NCBI GenBank assembly: GCA_000165345.1
Contig: CM000430.1
Location: 32,001-96,000, forward strand
Direction: 5' to 3'
DNA: 64,000 nucleotides
In this document: one piece after another, positions 43,301 through 49,300 of the stretch
Position numbering within the stretch: the first letter of the stretch is position 1
Layout of the letters: the number at the start of each line of letters is the position of its first letter
Position numbers: made by a program

Positions 43301-46300
43301 TTTGCATTTGGAATCCATCCAAGGGTGATAAGGTATTTAGAAAGCTCAAAGGACATTCAAAGGCTGTAGTTTCATTAGCATGGCAACCTCTGCATCTAAT
43401 GAACTTCTCTGCTGAAACTAAAGTTAATGATGGTGAGGAAAATGCTACAGAATCAGGGTCGAACAACTTGTATTTCCCTAAATTAATAAGTGCATCCAAG
43501 GATTTTACCCTAAAGATTTGGAACATAACAACTGGAACAATAATTAATACTTTGTCATCCCATACTGAAATGATTACACATGTCAAATGGACTGGAATAA
43601 ACCAGGAATATGTTGTTAGTTCTTCTAGAGATTCGCTGATTAAGGTTTGGAACCCAGAAACTGGTCAACTTTTGAGAGATTTGAAAGGCCATGCTCACTG
43701 GGTTAATACTCTTGCCCTAAATACTGATTATATTACCAGATCAGCTTGTTACTACCCTACTGGGAAAAACCTGAAGCTAAACTTCAAATCCTTGCAAGAC
43801 AAGATCGCTGCAGCCAAACAATCTGTTGATAACTTTAAAAAAAGGTGCAAGTTTGAAAGGCTTCTCTCAGGTTCTGACGATAATACTATGTTCCTATGGG
43901 ATCCGCTTGGAGAAAATGGTAGAAAGCCAATTCATAGACTAACAGGGCATTTAAAAGTTGTTAACCATGTTGCCTTTTCTCCAGACGGAAGATATATTGC
44001 ATCTGCATCATTTGATAAAACTATTAGGCTCTGGGATGGACATTCTGGAAAGTTTATTGCGGTTCTTAGGGGCCATGTCGGTCCAGTATATATGATTTCA
44101 TGGTCAGTGGATAGCAGATTGATTGCATCTGCTTCTAGTGATAGTACGGTAAAAGTTTGGCACGTAAGCTCTAAAAAACTCAAGGAAGATCTCCCAGGTC
44201 ATGCTGACGAAGTTTACACTATTGACTGGTCTATAGATGGTTCAAGACTTTCATCAGGATCTAAAGATTGTATTGTGAAAATCTGGAGGCATTAAAGAAT
44301 CTTTCACGCCTTTTCTACTAACTATTTATATATAATTTGAATATATTATTCGTATCAGGTTAAATAATATCAATATTTATAGTTTAATAAGAAAAATTAG
44401 ACTATTCATTTCATACCTTTTTATTTATTTATTTAATTAATAGGTTTGACTTTTATTTGTGTAATAACATTATTCCTAAATTCCCAAGTCATTAATATGG
44501 GATGAGAAAGATATTCTACAAAAGTAAAAACTTCATACTATTTGTTTGAAAGGTAAATCACCTCATTATTATTACTTTTAATATTCTTTTAATTTTTTTT
44601 TTTTTAAATCCATTATTACCTTTGATTATCTTCCAATTCGTTTTGGCGGCAAATGTCAATATTTACATGAAGGGATAAATCTGAAAATAGTTTTAAAAAA
44701 TTAATTAATTAAGGTAATAGTGGTTACAGTATGCTGAATAAACGACTTTAGAATAACTTATTAGTTAAACACAGTTACAATCAGAAACGGTTGGTATCGA
44801 GATTTAATCATGAAAGCTATTAATGCAATATTTTTATTTGCAATCTTGATATCCAGTTATTTAACAGAATCTCATGGGTATCAAGAAGGTAACAATCAAT
44901 TCGAGTATACTGGTTATGTAGCTCCCAGTTTGGATGTATTTTTGAGAGAGTATGATGCTTTTGGTAGAGCTAAAGATGAATTTGAGTTGGATCAAAAATT
45001 ATTCACATTATTAGAAAATCCAAATTGTTGGTACAATCAAAGAGGTAAAAAAGTTATCCTTTTGTTTAATGAAACCAATTTCCCAGAGGAATATGCAATT
45101 CTTCGTAAATCTAGTAGGCTGTTTGGACCAAATAATAGATTGGAAACTGATTTTTTGATTTTAGAAGAAGAGGAAGAACGAGAACAATATATGGATTTTT
45201 ATGAAAATATCAAAGATAACCATGATTTAGATATTTCAGAGAACAGAAATAATTATAATGACATAATTGTTGATGAAAAGAATAGATATGCCTATTTGGA
45301 TAATTATTCAGAAAATAAGACATCTACTGTCCAAGATTTAATCTCGGAAGATTTAGAGAAGGAAAAGTATAAATCCAGGATTAAAAAACTTATTAAGATG
45401 AAGGAAAACGCCTTAAAGAAGATCTTTCAAACCTCAAATGATATTAGAAGCTTGGAGAGCTCTTTTATTATGCATTGTGATTTCCCTGACTGTAGCTTAT
45501 GTAATGACTTTCAATCACATTTAAATAGTAAATATATTGAACTAAATAAGTATAAACACAGATATAGAATGATAATATCTTTATTCAAAGAGTTTGTTGA
45601 TCATTCTAATAAGTTTGGTTTTGAATACTATTATGAAAATGAGAACATTGACAGAAATTTAAAGGGTAGAGTTAATGATACTAAGAAAGTGCAAAAAATT
45701 ATAAGAAGACCAAACTTTAACATAACAAAAGAATATAATCATATTTTAGATTTTGATTCAAATTATAATGAATTAAAAAGAATGTTGAATGAAGCTGAAA
45801 GAGAAATGGATATTTTAACACAAAAAACAAAAAAAGAAACTATTGGTAACAATAATTATGGAGAACCAGAAATGATTGAATGCACTGGAGAAAAACTTAG
45901 AGAATTAGTTAGTAGAAATGAAAGGTTATCACTTTTAATTAGAAGTGTAAAGTTTTTTATTGAGTCTCTATTTGAAAGAACATGTTCAGTATGCAATATG
46001 AAATCATTCAATGGTTTTACCAAATTTGGAGATATGATTGACACGCAAATACGTATTTTAAAGTACTATCAGTCTGAAAAGAATATGATTGAAGAAGATA
46101 TCCAGCTGTGTAATAATTTTTTCGAAAACAATGCTATTAAATTGGATGATCATTCTCAATCTAGGAAAAATTCTTATAGTTATGAATACAGCTATTTGCC
46201 AAAAAATGAATATAATGTAAAGATGAATAAAATATTTGAAAAGTATAAAGAGTATGGAAAAAATAAAGTAGATCTTGAGAAGTTGATTTACGGTTCCTCA

Positions 46301-49300
46301 AGAAATTTGCAAGTTGGTAATAAAGATTTCATGTGTGACATTAATAGCTCAGTTTTGATGAATGAGTTATCCAAAGAAATTATGAGCAGAATAATTTCCA
46401 GTGAAATTCAAAAAAGGGTATATTTAAAACGAAAAGAATGTAATTTCTGTTCTTACAATGACTGTCAGAAATGTTACGAAAATTCTATTAAACTTAAAAA
46501 CCTGGAAAATAATATTAAGGCTCAGAATAAACTTTACAAGGTTATTTTGGCTTATTTAGAATTGTGTGGCTTTGAACAAGTTATGATTAATTCTGAGTTT
46601 AGAGATCAGGGAAAAAAGAGTAAAACAGAATTTGAATACTTTGGAAAGGATGGTAGATTATGGTCTGTTGAGAAATACTTATCAGAACCTTTTATTGATA
46701 GAGTATTGAAATTAAATGGTCAGCTATCACCTTTTCTTAGAGCAAAAATTCTAGAGAGAATTAAGCTAACATTACAAGCTTTCATTAAAGTTTTTGAACT
46801 TTCGTATTTTAACATTGACAGACAAGAATGTAATTCATGTGAATATGGACTCTGTAATGATTGTTTTTATAAGTTTAGAGAAATAAATGATAAAAAAAAG
46901 CAAATTACGAAATACAACCATTTATTGAGAGTAGTGAACTTAGAATTAGAAAAATACTATATACAAATAAGAAAATCAAAAACCAACTCAAGAATTAAGG
47001 GTAATACAAAGGAATGGATTTTAATTACAGATAACAGCCTTAGAAAATGGGTTCCAAATAAACCAGAACTTGTTTTAAAATGTGATAAAGCAAGTTATTC
47101 AGAGGCATTCACTTACTATAATGAAATTTCATTAAAGAGAAAACATTTAAAAAATATGTTAAATCATATTTATAGCTCTATAATGCATAGCAACCTAAAA
47201 TTCTCAGAGTACCATTTTTCAAAACAAGCCAAAGAATGGGAGTCAACATGGAGAAAGAAAGTTTATTATGATGAGGTATTTAGTTATATTAATAGATACT
47301 TATCATCATGTGTTAATAAAAATGAGGAACTTAGCAATTCCTTTCATGATTACTTATATAAAAAATCTGAAATAAGAAGTCTATATAAGAGTTTCCAAGA
47401 ACACAGTGAGAATATTAATTGCTTGATGGAAAAGATCAAGGAAATTCATAATAGTGGTTACATTGTATGTTCAAAACTTTCATCAACAAATTGTTGTAAT
47501 GATTTTGTTAATCCAGATGACATTTATAAACTACTAAATTCAGAATTCAATGCATTTAAATTAATTAGGAAAAGGTTAAACCATTTAATATATAATGAGC
47601 ATTTGAATTATTTTGATCGCAATAAAGAGTATTCTGAAAATTATCATAAAGGAGAGATTAATAATCGTTTTTTGAGACATCTAAACATGAAAAATGAAAA
47701 ATTAAGAAATAAGAAAAGAGTCAAAGAAGAGAAATTAGATAAGATAACAGTTGAATATCAAGATATTATTAGGTCACCAATATCAGGAATGAGTAAGTAC
47801 TTGCATGAAAATGAAATTAACACTCGAAGTGAAAATCAGAGTATAATTCAATTAAGTCCAAAGTCTGAATTTCAATGTAGTAAGACAGAAATTTTGGTTT
47901 TACAAAAAATAACTTCACTACTAACACAAAATAAAAACAGGTTGAGGCTATTATGGAGTCTGAATAGTGTAAGATGCAAAATAGAGGATTGTTATAATTG
48001 TAAGATAAGGAATAAATTTCATGATAAATTAGGAAAAGAGTTGAAAATTTTGAGTAAAGTTTTGAATAGCGCAGCTGAACAGTTGAATCAATGTACTTTG
48101 GATTCTGAAGATAATGCTGTTAGTAAAGAAGATATTATTGAGTTCCAAAATACATTAATGAAACTTTCAAAGAAAGAAAGTAGTTTTAATTATGACTTGA
48201 AAAGATATTTTGATAATATTAAAGATTTTCAATGTGAAAAGAATGAAATTGAAAATATTTTAAATATTAAAGGGGAAAAAGGAATGAAGATATATTCTTG
48301 GATAGAGGAGACTCTAGTTGAGATCCAGACTTTAGATAACGAATATGAGGACGAGAATATGAAAAGCAAATACACAATTTGGACACAACAAGTTACTCAA
48401 CTACTTGATTTCTCAAAAGCATTAGATGAGAGATTACAAGAATGTATAAATATGATAGAAATGTGTATAGATCACTCTGAAGAGAATAATATAAATCAAG
48501 TGAACATACGACAGAATTAAGAAACAGTATTATACAATCAAACTTTCTTAAAGAATTCAAAAACAATAGTGTGGGAATAAAATTAAGAAGCTATTGATTA
48601 ATAATGATAAAAACTACCATAATTAATGAATAATCTTAGGCATCCAAAGATCAGAGTTCCTCCAATGTTTGAACAAAAAATTGTTAAGATAATCAAACAT
48701 AAGCAAATCTTTTGAATTCAGAACTCCATATAATATATCCATTCAAAAAATATATATATACAGAATTTACATCCCGAGCTTAGTTCTTAACCAGTGACGC
48801 TTCTTAACGTTGTATCTGATATCAGTATCGTTCTTCATGCGGAACCAGTGTGGTACAGCTCTGTTCTGCTTCATCTTCTTACCGAGACGCTTCTTTAACA
48901 TGAAACCTTTGTTTGCTCCCATTTCGTCAACCTTTTATTGCAACAAATTTAAAAATATTGTTTAGTAAAATAAAAGTTATTTAACAATTGAAAGTTATTG
49001 CCTTTTACACTGTTTAATGTTGTTATTTATACGGTTGTATTAATTATAATATTATTAATATATTTAATTAGTTGACTAATAAATTATTATTTAGCAGGCG
49101 CCAAATTTACTAAGACAAAAAAATGGCAGGTACTATACCGCTGGAATTTTGTCTCGTCTCGCTACTTTGTAAAAAATTTACGAAAATATTGTGTATATAG
49201 ATCTCGATTGTGAGATGAAAAAAAGATGAAAAAAAAAAATTGGAGAAAAAGTTGATGAGTAGGAGTTAAATAATAATAAGCTAATTAGTGAATACTATAA

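What the first reader, a model, noticed from the sequence alone, without database searches (positions are those of the whole stretch)
44810..48520. 1236-aa secreted protein built from five repeated CxxC...CxxC modules separated by coiled-coil-like K/N/E-rich spacers
A clear signal peptide is followed by a very large, lysine/asparagine-rich polypeptide. Cysteines occur almost only in five evenly recurring clusters: CDFPDCSLCND, CSVCNMKS, CNFCSYNDCQKCYEN, CNSCEYGLCNDCFYKF and CKIEDCYNCKIRNKF. Each is followed by sequence with heptad-like periodicity. This looks like an internally duplicated extracellular or secretory-organelle protein with small disulfide or metal-binding knots. I cannot place it in a known domain family. 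The GGCGGC box upstream (44641-44653) suggests it is co-regulated with the housekeeping or invasion-machinery set rather than the variable array.
Basis: seen in the sequence. Interest (0 to 1): 0.55.

Follow-up and report, generated by a model that had tools for sequence, protein, structure and literature searches.

The report
Secreted Cryptosporidium protein of disulfide-stapled helical hairpins
This is cgd2_340, an uncharacterised 1236-residue secreted protein found only in intestinal Cryptosporidium species, which appears to be a chain of long helical hairpins pinned shut by cysteines; it is not a zinc-finger protein, and it is a new but moderately interesting orphan protein made when invasive parasite stages form.

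Summary
ORF 44810-48520 (+) is C. parvum cgd2_340, 1236 aa, with a conserved signal peptide, K/N/E-rich composition, five cysteine clusters exactly as quoted, and heptad-like periodicity above chance. "Five CxxC...CxxC modules" is too simple. Only two clusters are CxxC-x4-CxxC; two are C-x4-C-x2-C and one is a single CxxC. Half of the 32 cysteines lie outside the clusters, and these are the informative ones. Ten invariant isolated cysteines form five pairs 70-77 residues apart. Each pair's midpoint falls on a predicted helix-turn-helix loop, and three fall on the cysteine knots. The repeat is therefore a ~75-residue antiparallel alpha-hairpin, stapled at its open end and often knotted at its tip. 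Pfam, PDB sequence and fold searches find no family. A profile search of 1.84 billion proteins finds only Cryptosporidium orthologues. C. xiaoi has the gene in synteny, while C. muris lacks it at both flanks of a synteny breakpoint. Transcript is absent at 6 h, peaks at 12 h like apical-organelle genes, and is stored in oocysts; peptides were detected 3 h post-infection. dN/dS is 0.24. Best reading: a disulfide-locked, rod-like secretory protein of zoites. Its exact location and function are untested. The database label "RING/FYVE/PHD zinc finger" fails its defining features.

The parts
44641..44653 (+). E2F-like promoter box TTTTGGCGGCAAA, 167 bp upstream of the ATG
   Evidence: Sequence read. 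There are 20 TTSGCGS boxes in the window, 19 of them outside ORFs of >=200 aa. It is a generic promoter element and not specific to this gene.
44810..48520 (+). cgd2_340 coding sequence: 1236 aa plus stop, no intron
   Evidence: ORF. Exact match to XP_625402.1/Q5CPL9. Gene identifier and chr2 coordinates 76810-80520. Orthologues are collinear over 97-100% of the length.
44810..44878 (+). Signal peptide, residues 1-23 (cleavage inferred after SHG)
   Evidence: Most hydrophobic window of the protein. A hydrophobic N-terminus is present in all 9 orthologues. SignalP-positive in PMC7193590 Table S4. The cleavage site is inferred from the -3/-1 rule and was not computed.
44879..45184 (+). N-terminal conserved domain, residues 24-125: the most conserved part, holding the lone C73, the invariant sequon N87-E-T and an acidic EEEE run
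   Evidence: 37% of columns are invariant, against 7-10% in linkers. dN/dS is 0.115. AlphaFold confidence is low here (pLDDT 25-49), so the fold is unknown.
45476..45502 (+). Knot 1, C223-x4-C228-x2-C231, at the turn between helices ~178-222 and ~229-265; no distal staple
   Evidence: Invariant cysteines. Lies in a predicted loop between two long helices. Knot alignment.
45881..46111 (+). Hairpin unit 2, C358...[C392-x2-C395 knot]...C434
   Evidence: Spacing is 76 residues. The midpoint (396) compares with the knot centre at 393.5 and the predicted loop 390-405. C358 lies 2 residues before the start of helix A.
46334..46567 (+). Hairpin unit 3, C509...[C544-x2-C547-x4-C552-x2-C555 knot]...C586
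   Evidence: Spacing is 77 residues. The midpoint (547.5) equals the centre of the predicted loop 543-552, and both arms are 33 residues.
46829..46864 (+). Knot 4, C674-x2-C677-x4-C682-x2-C685 (invariant CNDC), in the loop before helix ~684-722; no distal staple
   Evidence: It is the best internal match to unit 3 (hhalign probability 50-54%). This is also the site of the sub-threshold FYVE hit.
47081..47311 (+). Hairpin unit 5, C758...turn 793-799 (no knot)...C834
   Evidence: Spacing is 76 residues. The midpoint (796.0) equals the predicted loop centre, and both arms are 34 residues.
47420..47497 (+). Variable cysteine turn, C871, C887, C895, C896, in the loop between helices ~843-880 and ~902-945
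   Evidence: These cysteines are gained and lost among orthologues, mostly in compensating numbers. Loop position.
47876..48094 (+). Hairpin unit 6, C1023...[C1056-x4-C1061-x2-C1064 knot]...C1095
   Evidence: Spacing is 72 residues, with midpoint 1059 against knot centre 1060. Modelled confidently, with pLDDT 77-96 in the C-terminal model.
48233..48445 (+). Hairpin unit 7, C1142...turn 1175-1181 (no knot)...C1212
   Evidence: Spacing is 70 residues, with midpoint 1177 against loop centre 1178. Modelled confidently, pLDDT 71-93.

Best explanation
cgd2_340 encodes a soluble protein of the secretory pathway made by zoites (sporozoites and merozoites) of intestinal Cryptosporidium species.

After a cleaved signal peptide and a highly conserved N-terminal domain of about 100 residues, the chain is almost entirely alpha-helical. 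It is organised as at least seven long antiparallel helix-turn-helix hairpins of about 75 residues each.

The cysteines lock these hairpins. In five units, one cysteine two residues before helix A and one near the end of helix B are placed to form a disulfide 'staple' across the open end. The predicted pairs are C358-C434, C509-C586, C758-C834, C1023-C1095 and C1142-C1212. In five units a small knot with core C-x4-C-x2-C sits at the turn, with its last CxxC in the first turn of helix B. Two of these knots carry an extra N-terminal C-x2, and one is reduced to a single CxxC.

The result would be an elongated, disulfide-rigidified rod or scaffold that tolerates the gut lumen. I infer that it is stored in a secretory compartment and released around invasion, where it would serve a structural or adhesive role at or near the parasite-host interface.

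Shown here: the ORF, the conserved signal peptide, cysteine conservation, the spacing and midpoint geometry, the helical hairpin prediction, the absence of known domains, the genus-restricted distribution, purifying selection, the published transcript timing and the published peptide detection. Inferred: the actual disulfide pairing, secretion beyond the ER, the organelle, and the function.
For: Architecture.
- 26 cysteines are invariant across 9 orthologues that go down to 34% identity.
- The 11 isolated invariant cysteines include five pairs spaced 76, 77, 76, 72 and 70 residues apart. At least 5 gaps within any 8-residue-wide range occurs in 0.17% of random placements.
- Three knots lie within 4 residues of the midpoint of their flanking pair (P=2.7e-4).
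- All five midpoints fall within 0-2.5 residues of an AlphaFold helix-helix loop centre.
- In all five units the first cysteine is exactly 2 residues before helix A and is followed by T, D, S or E. The second cysteine has L or I at -3 in all five. Arm lengths match within 0-5 residues.
- The C-terminal 227 residues model confidently (pLDDT 81, pTM 0.79) as six helices containing two such hairpins.
- The knot core C-x4-C-x2-C recurs in 4 of 5 clusters, and the residues between the cysteines vary freely.

Secretory and disulfide reading.
- The signal peptide is conserved, and there is no second hydrophobic segment and no C-terminal retention-like motif.
- The N87-E-T sequon is invariant.
- The mature-chain cysteine count is even in 7 of 9 orthologues, with compensated gains and losses in three lineages.

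Stage.
- qRT-PCR shows about zero at 6 h and a peak at 12 h in 4 of 4 replicates, then a decline to 72 h. This is the same shape as the rhoptry gene cgd2_370.
- The 12 h time point is when apical-organelle and IMC transcripts peak.
- One primer maps inside the ORF.
- The sense transcript is over-represented in oocysts.
- Five peptides and 7 PSMs were recorded in 3 h post-infection lysates.

Constraint. dN/dS is 0.235 overall and lowest in the N-terminal domain and the hairpins.
Against: - No disulfide has been observed. I could not read model coordinates, so S-S distances are untested.
- The full-length model has low confidence (pLDDT 54, pTM 0.31), and the knot loops themselves are below 50. 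AlphaFold may itself be biased by cysteine patterns.
- Two orthologues (felis 31; xiaoi 33, or 34 if its N-terminal cysteine is in the mature chain) have an odd mature cysteine count.
- Knots 1 and 5 have three cysteines, so at least some cysteines must pair elsewhere, stay free or link chains.
- Sequence-level evidence that the units are duplicates is weak.
- No localisation data were accessible. The hyperLOPIT and single-cell atlas papers are not held.
- The gene is not among the 16 hyperLOPIT rhoptry proteins, and it was only background-level in the DG8 pull-down (fold change 1.88, p=0.09).
- It was absent from two glycoproteomic supplements.
- Transcript levels are low (about 1e-6 relative units) and noisy.
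Confidence: 0.5

Rival explanations
1. The cysteine knots link chains instead of closing hairpins within one chain, or do so in addition. The protein would then be an oligomeric extracellular coiled-coil whose CxxC-type motifs form interchain disulfide rings, as in COMP, thrombospondin, laminin or fibrinogen (own knowledge), giving a covalently cross-linked fibre or mesh.
For: Heptad-like periodicity is well above chance and directly follows knots 1, 4 and 5. Knots 1 and 5 have an odd number of cysteines (3), and C73 is a lone invariant cysteine, so some cysteines lack an obvious partner within the same unit. Two orthologues have odd totals. The signal peptide puts the protein in an oxidising compartment.
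Against: The midpoint symmetry of the five distal pairs is what an antiparallel fold-back within one chain predicts. A parallel multi-chain coiled coil does not predict it. AlphaFold places every knot at a turn between antiparallel helices, with confidence for unit 6. Oligomerisation was not testable with the tools available.
Confidence: 0.2
2. [quoted passage not shown] The protein would be a metal-stabilised, possibly intracellular, protein.
For: Some depositors use that name for the C. hominis, C. tyzzeri and C. felis orthologues. Clusters 3 and 4 offer four cysteines in C-x2-C-x4-C-x2-C. There is a faint FYVE match at residues 668-696.
Against: The FYVE score is 7.5 bits against a cut-off of 27.8, at E=6.1. 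RING, PHD and FYVE domains need eight ligands in a cross-brace, but each cluster here has 2-4 cysteines, with no conserved His or Cys within about 30-70 residues downstream. Clusters 1, 2 and 5 have only 3, 2 and 3 cysteines, and C. xiaoi lacks C552. The signal peptide is conserved. No fold hit has a zinc-binding domain as the matched region; the one TRIM5 B-box/coiled-coil chimera hit most plausibly aligns through its coiled coil (inference), and the hits are otherwise all-alpha hairpins. A single tetrathiolate zinc site in clusters 3 and 4 of a secreted protein cannot be strictly excluded.
Confidence: 0.07
3. It is a component of the oocyst or sporocyst-like matrix, or of the oocyst wall. 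It would be made for transmission stages and not for invasion, with cysteines providing covalent cross-links as in the COWP proteins.
For: The sense transcript is over-represented in oocysts compared with 24 h intracellular stages. The protein is secreted, cysteine-containing and fairly tyrosine-rich (72 Y).
Against: The transcript peaks at 12 h and falls about 10-100-fold by 48-72 h, the period when sexual-stage and meiotic genes rise in the same dataset. There is no similarity to any other Cryptosporidium protein, including COWPs, since the searches returned only orthologues. Oocyst mRNA largely reflects stored sporozoite transcripts (own knowledge).
Confidence: 0.1
4. It is a resident of the early secretory pathway (ER or Golgi lumen). 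It might be a redox-active CxxC protein or a luminal scaffold for organelle biogenesis, and would not be secreted.
For: It has a signal peptide and several CxxC motifs positioned at helix N-termini, the geometry used by thiol-disulfide oxidoreductases (own knowledge). Expression coincides with organelle biogenesis at 12 h.
Against: There is no thioredoxin, Erv or Ero1 domain and no beta-strand in the models. The residues between the CxxC cysteines vary freely among orthologues, unlike catalytic CxxC motifs. The C-terminus (...NIRQN) lacks an H/KDEL-type signal and is not conserved.
Confidence: 0.08

Closest known systems
Disulfide-stapled alpha-hairpins: CHCH (twin Cx9C) domains, plant alpha-hairpinins (CxxxC...CxxxC) and saposin-like domains (own knowledge)
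   Same: A helix-turn-helix of two antiparallel helices held together by disulfides between the two arms. Saposin-like domains are also about 80 residues long, secreted, and have nested disulfides joining the N- and C-terminal helices.
   Different: There are no Cx9C or Cx3C twins and no SapB Pfam match. The arms here are far longer (about 30-35 residues). There is one distal staple plus a knot at the turn, and the units are strung together at least seven times in one 1236-aa chain. CHCH domains are mitochondrial, whereas this protein has an ER signal peptide.
Extracellular coiled-coil proteins with CxxC or CxxxC disulfide knots: COMP, thrombospondin, laminin, fibrinogen (own knowledge)
   Same: Secreted, long heptad-patterned helices with closely spaced cysteine pairs at the ends of the helices, which make the rod covalently stable.
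   Different: In those proteins the helices are parallel and the disulfides join different chains. Here the cysteine geometry and the models indicate fold-back hairpins within one chain. There is no sequence or fold match.
RING/FYVE/PHD-type zinc fingers (the name given to some orthologues in public records)
   Same: Closely spaced CxxC pairs.
   Different: The family's defining eight-ligand cross-brace is absent and the Pfam score is far below threshold. The protein has a signal peptide and an all-alpha prediction.
Generic long alpha-hairpins in solved structures: ESCRT-III CHMP4B hairpin, ROP, prefoldin arms, spectrin repeats
   Different: Sequence identity is 4-17%, none of the hits is cysteine-stapled, and all are cytosolic or designed. 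The match reflects a shared shape and is not evidence of homology. Foldseek gives no hit with E<0.1.
Lineage-restricted secreted proteins of Cryptosporidium zoites (dense-granule, small-granule, microneme and rhoptry cargo defined by hyperLOPIT)
   Same: Signal peptide, no homologues outside the genus, transcription during merogony with mRNA stored in sporozoites, and protein present early after invasion.
   Different: No organelle assignment could be obtained. The gene is not in the rhoptry list and was not a significant DG8 partner. It is single-copy and under purifying selection, unlike the polymorphic subtelomeric families.

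Membership tests
[quoted passage not shown] | A significant match to a family profile (Pfam FYVE, RING or PHD models) | tested here: not met
   The only Pfam line is FYVE at E=6.1, 7.5 bits against a gathering score of 27.8, covering residues 668-696 and 29 of 67 profile positions. A profile of 9 orthologues finds no zinc-finger chain in the PDB.
[quoted passage not shown] | Eight Cys/His ligands in a cross-brace binding two zinc ions within about 40-70 residues | tested here: not met
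   The clusters hold 3, 2, 4, 4 and 3 cysteines within 4-12 residues. The next conserved Cys is 31-127 residues away, and no conserved His follows.
[quoted passage not shown] | Cytosolic or nuclear protein (no signal peptide) | tested here: not met
   Conserved N-terminal signal peptide. SignalP-positive in PMC7193590 Table S4.
[quoted passage not shown] | Zinc actually bound | not testable with these tools
   Needs metal analysis of the purified protein.
Thioredoxin-like or Erv/Ero1 thiol-disulfide oxidoreductases | A catalytic CxxC embedded in a thioredoxin fold or an FAD-binding helical bundle, with conserved residues between the cysteines | tested here: not met
   No Pfam hit. The models have essentially no beta-structure. 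The residues inside the CxxC motifs vary among orthologues, for example CSLC, CNIC, CYVC and CEIC.
Saposin-like (SAPLIP) or CHCH disulfide-bonded helical domains | The characteristic cysteine pattern (six Cys in about 80 aa for SapB; twin Cx9C for CHCH) and a profile match | tested here: not met
   No SapB or CHCH Pfam match at E<=10. The pattern here is C...(C-x2-)C-x4-C-x2-C...C, with no Cx9C.
Cryptosporidium oocyst wall proteins (COWP-type cysteine-rich repeats) | Homology to COWP repeats, and expression in late (female or oocyst-forming) stages | tested here: not met
   The searches return only one orthologue per species and no paralogue or COWP. The transcript peaks at 12 h and declines through 48-72 h.
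Interchain disulfide-knotted extracellular coiled coils (COMP, laminin or fibrinogen type) | Parallel multi-chain coiled coil with cysteines linking different chains | not testable with these tools
   Heptad periodicity is present. The cysteine geometry favours fold-back within one chain. The oligomeric state could not be computed.
Proposed new unit: stapled alpha-hairpin repeat of cgd2_340 | Two invariant cysteines 70-77 residues apart, symmetric about a helix-turn-helix turn | tested here: met
   There are five pairs, and their midpoints lie within 0-2.5 residues of the predicted loop centres. P<=1.7e-3 for the spacing and 2.7e-4 for the knot centring. The helix register is identical in all five.
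Proposed new unit: stapled alpha-hairpin repeat of cgd2_340 | The paired cysteines actually form disulfides | not testable with these tools
The cysteine-parity test is only suggestive (7 of 9 even).
Zoite secretory-organelle cargo of Cryptosporidium | Signal peptide plus a merogony-peak transcript, with protein present in sporozoites or early infection | tested here: met
   signal peptide; 12 h peak, off at 6 h; oocyst mRNA; peptides at 3 h post-infection.
Zoite secretory-organelle cargo of Cryptosporidium | Localisation to micronemes, dense or small granules or the rhoptry, by spatial proteomics or tagging | not tested
   The hyperLOPIT paper and the single-cell atlas are not held. The gene is not among the 16 listed rhoptry proteins.

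The most novel reading that the evidence does not exclude
cgd2_340 defines a previously undescribed extracellular repeat: an alpha-hairpin of about 75 residues, closed by a distal disulfide and capped by a C-x4-C-x2-C knot. The gene arose, or was retained only, in the intestinal Cryptosporidium lineage, exactly at a chromosomal rearrangement breakpoint relative to gastric species. Its product would be a rigid, protease-resistant rod that zoites secrete to help build the epicellular host-parasite interface peculiar to this genus.
Probability: 0.25. Interest if true: 0.6.

Novelty: new variant of a known kind. Interest (0 to 1): 0.42.

Why it matters
Cryptosporidium is a leading cause of childhood diarrhoea, and its unusual epicellular niche is built largely from secreted proteins that are restricted to the lineage and that sequence comparison cannot annotate. 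This gene is one of them. It is conserved under purifying selection across the intestinal species, absent from gastric C. muris at the syntenic site, transcribed when invasive stages form, and present as protein early in infection.

The analysis replaces a misleading public label (zinc finger) with a concrete structural model that can be tested: five named disulfide pairs and a repeat definition. That model could guide construct design for antibodies, tagging and structural work. If the stapled-hairpin repeat is real, it adds a new module to the catalogue of extracellular protein building blocks.

The finding does not by itself resolve a long-standing question, and the function remains inferred.

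Tried and rejected
- Self-BLAST for internal repeats found nothing.
- My first hhalign control run timed out. In the rerun, two control scores (120.9 and 32.4) came from control segments overlapping modules 3 and 2, and I discounted them.
- A simple FFT test for 3.5-residue periodicity with an arbitrary threshold found nothing. I replaced it with a register-based test against shuffles.
- Foldseek on the low-confidence full-length model gave no meaningful hit, as expected. AFDB50 was unavailable, so hidden structural relatives in other apicomplexans could not be sought.
- Literature searches by accession found nothing. The hyperLOPIT paper and the single-cell atlas are not held.
- Supplements of five papers or preprints either held no files or did not list the gene.
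- I considered that the E2F-like box 3' of the gene (49097) drives the reported antisense RNA. I rejected this in favour of it being the RPL39 promoter element.
- I considered a small C. muris ORF with a CxxC-helix motif next to the syntenic site as a diverged relative, and rejected it (hhalign probability 0.5%).
- I considered a second membrane segment at 575-593 (Kyte-Doolittle 1.27) and rejected it as an amphipathic helix.
- The cysteine-parity test for disulfides was inconclusive.

Full report
**Identity and observation.** The window is Cryptosporidium parvum Iowa II chromosome 2, positions 32001-96000. The ORF at 44810-48520 (+) encodes 1236 aa. It is identical to XP_625402.1/Q5CPL9, 'signal peptide, large protein'. 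The identifier cgd2_340 follows from the neighbouring ARO gene being cgd2_370 and from a variant table that gives cgd2_340 at CM000430:76810-80520, next to cgd2_330 'notchless'.

CxxC occurs 7 times against 0.79 expected. K, N and E each make up about 10% of residues. The N-terminus is the most hydrophobic segment and is hydrophobic in every orthologue, and a published SignalP run lists the protein as positive. No other segment looks membrane-spanning, and the C-terminus is hydrophilic and unconserved. Heptad-like periodicity is six-fold above shuffles.

**What the first description missed.** Only half of the 32 cysteines are in the five clusters. Across nine orthologues, from 96% identity (C. 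hominis) to 34% (C. xiaoi), 26 cysteines are invariant, and 11 of those are isolated.

Ten of the isolated ones form five consecutive pairs spaced 76, 77, 76, 72 and 70 residues apart: C358/C434, C509/C586, C758/C834, C1023/C1095 and C1142/C1212. Random placement gives five such gaps in any 8-residue-wide range in only 0.17% of trials. Three of the five clusters lie within 4 residues of the midpoint of a pair (P=2.7e-4).

AlphaFold2 on residues 24-1223 is poor overall (pLDDT 54, pTM 0.31) but predicts an almost all-helical chain in which every cluster sits in a short loop between two long helices. The midpoints of all five pairs coincide with such loops to within 0-2.5 residues, including two hairpins that have no cluster. 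A separate model of residues 1010-1236 is confident (pLDDT 81, pTM 0.79) and shows six helices with two of these hairpins.

In all five units the first cysteine lies exactly two residues before helix A and is followed by a helix-capping type residue (T, D, S or E). The second cysteine has L or I at -3 and lies close to the end of helix B, from one residue past its end to six residues before it (three before in three of the five units). The two arms agree in length within 0-5 residues. This is the geometry expected if each pair closes the open end of an antiparallel hairpin.

The clusters share the core C-x4-C-x2-C in modules 1, 3, 4 and 5. Modules 3 and 4 add C-x2- in front, and module 2 keeps only CxxC. 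The residues between the cysteines are free to vary. A sixth, variable cysteine turn (871-896) also lies between two long helices.

**Are the units duplicates?** Self-BLAST finds nothing. Profile-profile comparison of the orthologue sub-alignments scores module pairs above composition-matched controls (median 16.9 against about 10-11; p=6e-6). Only units 3 and 4 reach about 50% probability, followed by 1-4 at 22% and 2-7 at 13%, and the cysteine columns contribute to those scores. I therefore regard the repeat as established at the level of architecture and only plausible at the level of common descent.

**Disulfide or metal?** I could not read coordinates, so the case is indirect.
- In favour of disulfides: a conserved signal peptide; an invariant N-E-T sequon at N87; clusters of 2, 3, 4, 4 and 3 cysteines that cannot all make a four-ligand site; no conserved histidines nearby; and loss of C552 in C. 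xiaoi with new cysteines appearing close by.
- The mature cysteine count is even in 7 of 9 orthologues, with compensated changes in C. meleagridis (+2), the Logan-derived species (-1/+1) and C. canis (-2/+2). C. felis (31) is odd and C. xiaoi (33 or 34) is ambiguous, so this test is suggestive only.
[quoted passage not shown] The FYVE hit is at E=6.1, 7.5 bits against a 27.8 threshold, and the eight-ligand cross-brace is absent.

**Relatives.**
- Pfam finds no family.
- A 9-sequence profile against all PDB sequences finds nothing below E=1.
- Foldseek gives no hit below E=0.1.
- A word-indexed search of 5.8 billion proteins returns eight clusters, all Cryptosporidium.
- An exhaustive HMM search of 1.84 billion representatives returns only Cryptosporidium proteins.
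- There is one copy per species.

**Synteny.** In C. xiaoi the gene order is MORC, nucleoside transporter, AHSA1, Notchless, the orthologue, RPL39, eIF3b, ARO, identical to the window.

In C. muris, Notchless is followed by OTU and ABC transporter genes on one contig. On another contig, RPL39 is followed by about 3 kb without any ORF of 100 aa or more, and then by an unrelated RING/PHD protein. tblastn of cgd2_340 against both loci gives nothing better than E=3. The gene therefore lies at a breakpoint of synteny and has no detectable counterpart in this gastric species. I cannot distinguish loss in C. muris from origin in the intestinal lineage.

**Expression and constraint.** In the qRT-PCR atlas of in vitro development, cgd2_340 is detectable at 2 h, essentially zero at 6 h (three of four replicates exactly zero), maximal at 12 h in all four replicates, and then declines 10-100-fold by 72 h. 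The rhoptry gene cgd2_370 in the same table has the same off-at-6-h, peak-at-12-h shape. The listed reverse primer maps to 47232-47253 inside the ORF.

The authors identify 12 h with immature meronts and with transcripts for micronemes, rhoptries and the inner membrane complex, while sexual-stage and meiotic genes rise at 48-72 h. RNA-seq comparisons list the sense transcript as over-represented in oocysts. A 2026 pull-down study detected the protein (5 peptides, 7 PSMs) in lysates of cells 3 h after infection. Its enrichment with the DG8 bait was not significant (1.88, p=0.09) and was comparable with actin and ribosomal proteins. It is not one of the 16 hyperLOPIT rhoptry proteins.

Against C. 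hominis, dS is 0.072 and dN is 0.017, giving dN/dS 0.235. By region this is 0.115 in the N-terminal domain, 0.18 in the hairpins and 0.30 in the linkers. The N-terminal domain (24-125) is the most conserved part, with 37% of columns invariant, yet it is not confidently modelled. Its role is unknown.

**The promoter box.** TTTTGGCGGCAAA at 44641-44653 is real. E2F-like boxes (TTSGCGS) occur 20 times in the window, 19 of them outside ORFs of 200 aa or more. One lies about 175 bp upstream of the small RPL39 gene that I located at about 48767-48922 (-). The box marks a promoter but does not assign the gene to a regulon.

**Interpretation.** The most economical reading is a soluble secretory protein of zoites, built from disulfide-locked alpha-hairpins that form an elongated, chemically robust rod, and released around invasion. 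The architecture is well supported. The disulfide pairing is a specific prediction that remains untested. The organelle and the function are inferences from a signal peptide, timing of expression and early protein presence.

The rivals are interchain disulfide knots in an oligomeric coiled coil, zinc sites, an oocyst matrix or wall role, and an ER-resident role. They are listed with their tests. Overall this is a new, lineage-restricted variant of a familiar kind of thing, a cysteine-stabilised modular secreted parasite protein, and it comes with a clean structural hypothesis. It is of moderate interest.

Noticed in passing
window 48767-48922 (-) and 49097-49104: An unlisted small gene, the RPL39 orthologue (51 aa, probably cgd2_350), lies convergent with cgd2_340. 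An E2F-like box sits about 175 bp upstream of it. Read-through from RPL39 or eIF3b could explain the antisense RNA reported over cgd2_340 in oocysts and sporozoites.
   Followed up: partly
window 44296-49385; loci L001 (C. muris DS989729), L002 (C. muris DS989732), L004 (C. xiaoi): cgd2_340 lies exactly at a synteny breakpoint. C. xiaoi has the same gene order as C. parvum. In C. muris the Notchless side and the RPL39/eIF3b side are on different contigs, and neither junction carries the gene.
   Followed up: yes
L002 13429-16375 (C. muris): About 3 kb downstream of RPL39 has no called gene and no ORF of 100 aa or more, which is unusually long for this compact genome. It could be a decayed remnant or an RNA gene. 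tblastn with cgd2_340 finds nothing there.
   Followed up: partly
whole window: E2F-like boxes (TTSGCGS / SCGCSAA) occur 20 times, and 19 of them lie outside ORFs of 200 aa or more, even though coding sequence is richer in G+C. This fits a general promoter element of this genome.
   Followed up: partly
window 35766-39536 (+): A 1256-aa protein with N-terminal Kelch repeats followed by a GHKL ATPase and a MORC S5 domain: a MORC-type chromatin factor, conserved in synteny in C. muris and C. xiaoi.
   Followed up: no
window 52216-53037 (-): The armadillo-repeat-only protein CpARO (cgd2_370), a recently characterised rhoptry-envelope protein, lies two to three genes from the target and shares its 12 h transcript peak.
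   Followed up: partly
window 54001-56000: G+C drops to 0.19 here, the lowest in the window, in a stretch without any ORF of 200 aa or more.
   Followed up: no
window 42682-44295 (+), cgd2_330 Notchless: The listed ORF starts at a GTG and is 537 aa, whereas the orthologues are 513-535 aa. The true start is probably a downstream ATG. The published tables also report antisense transcription for this gene.
   Followed up: no
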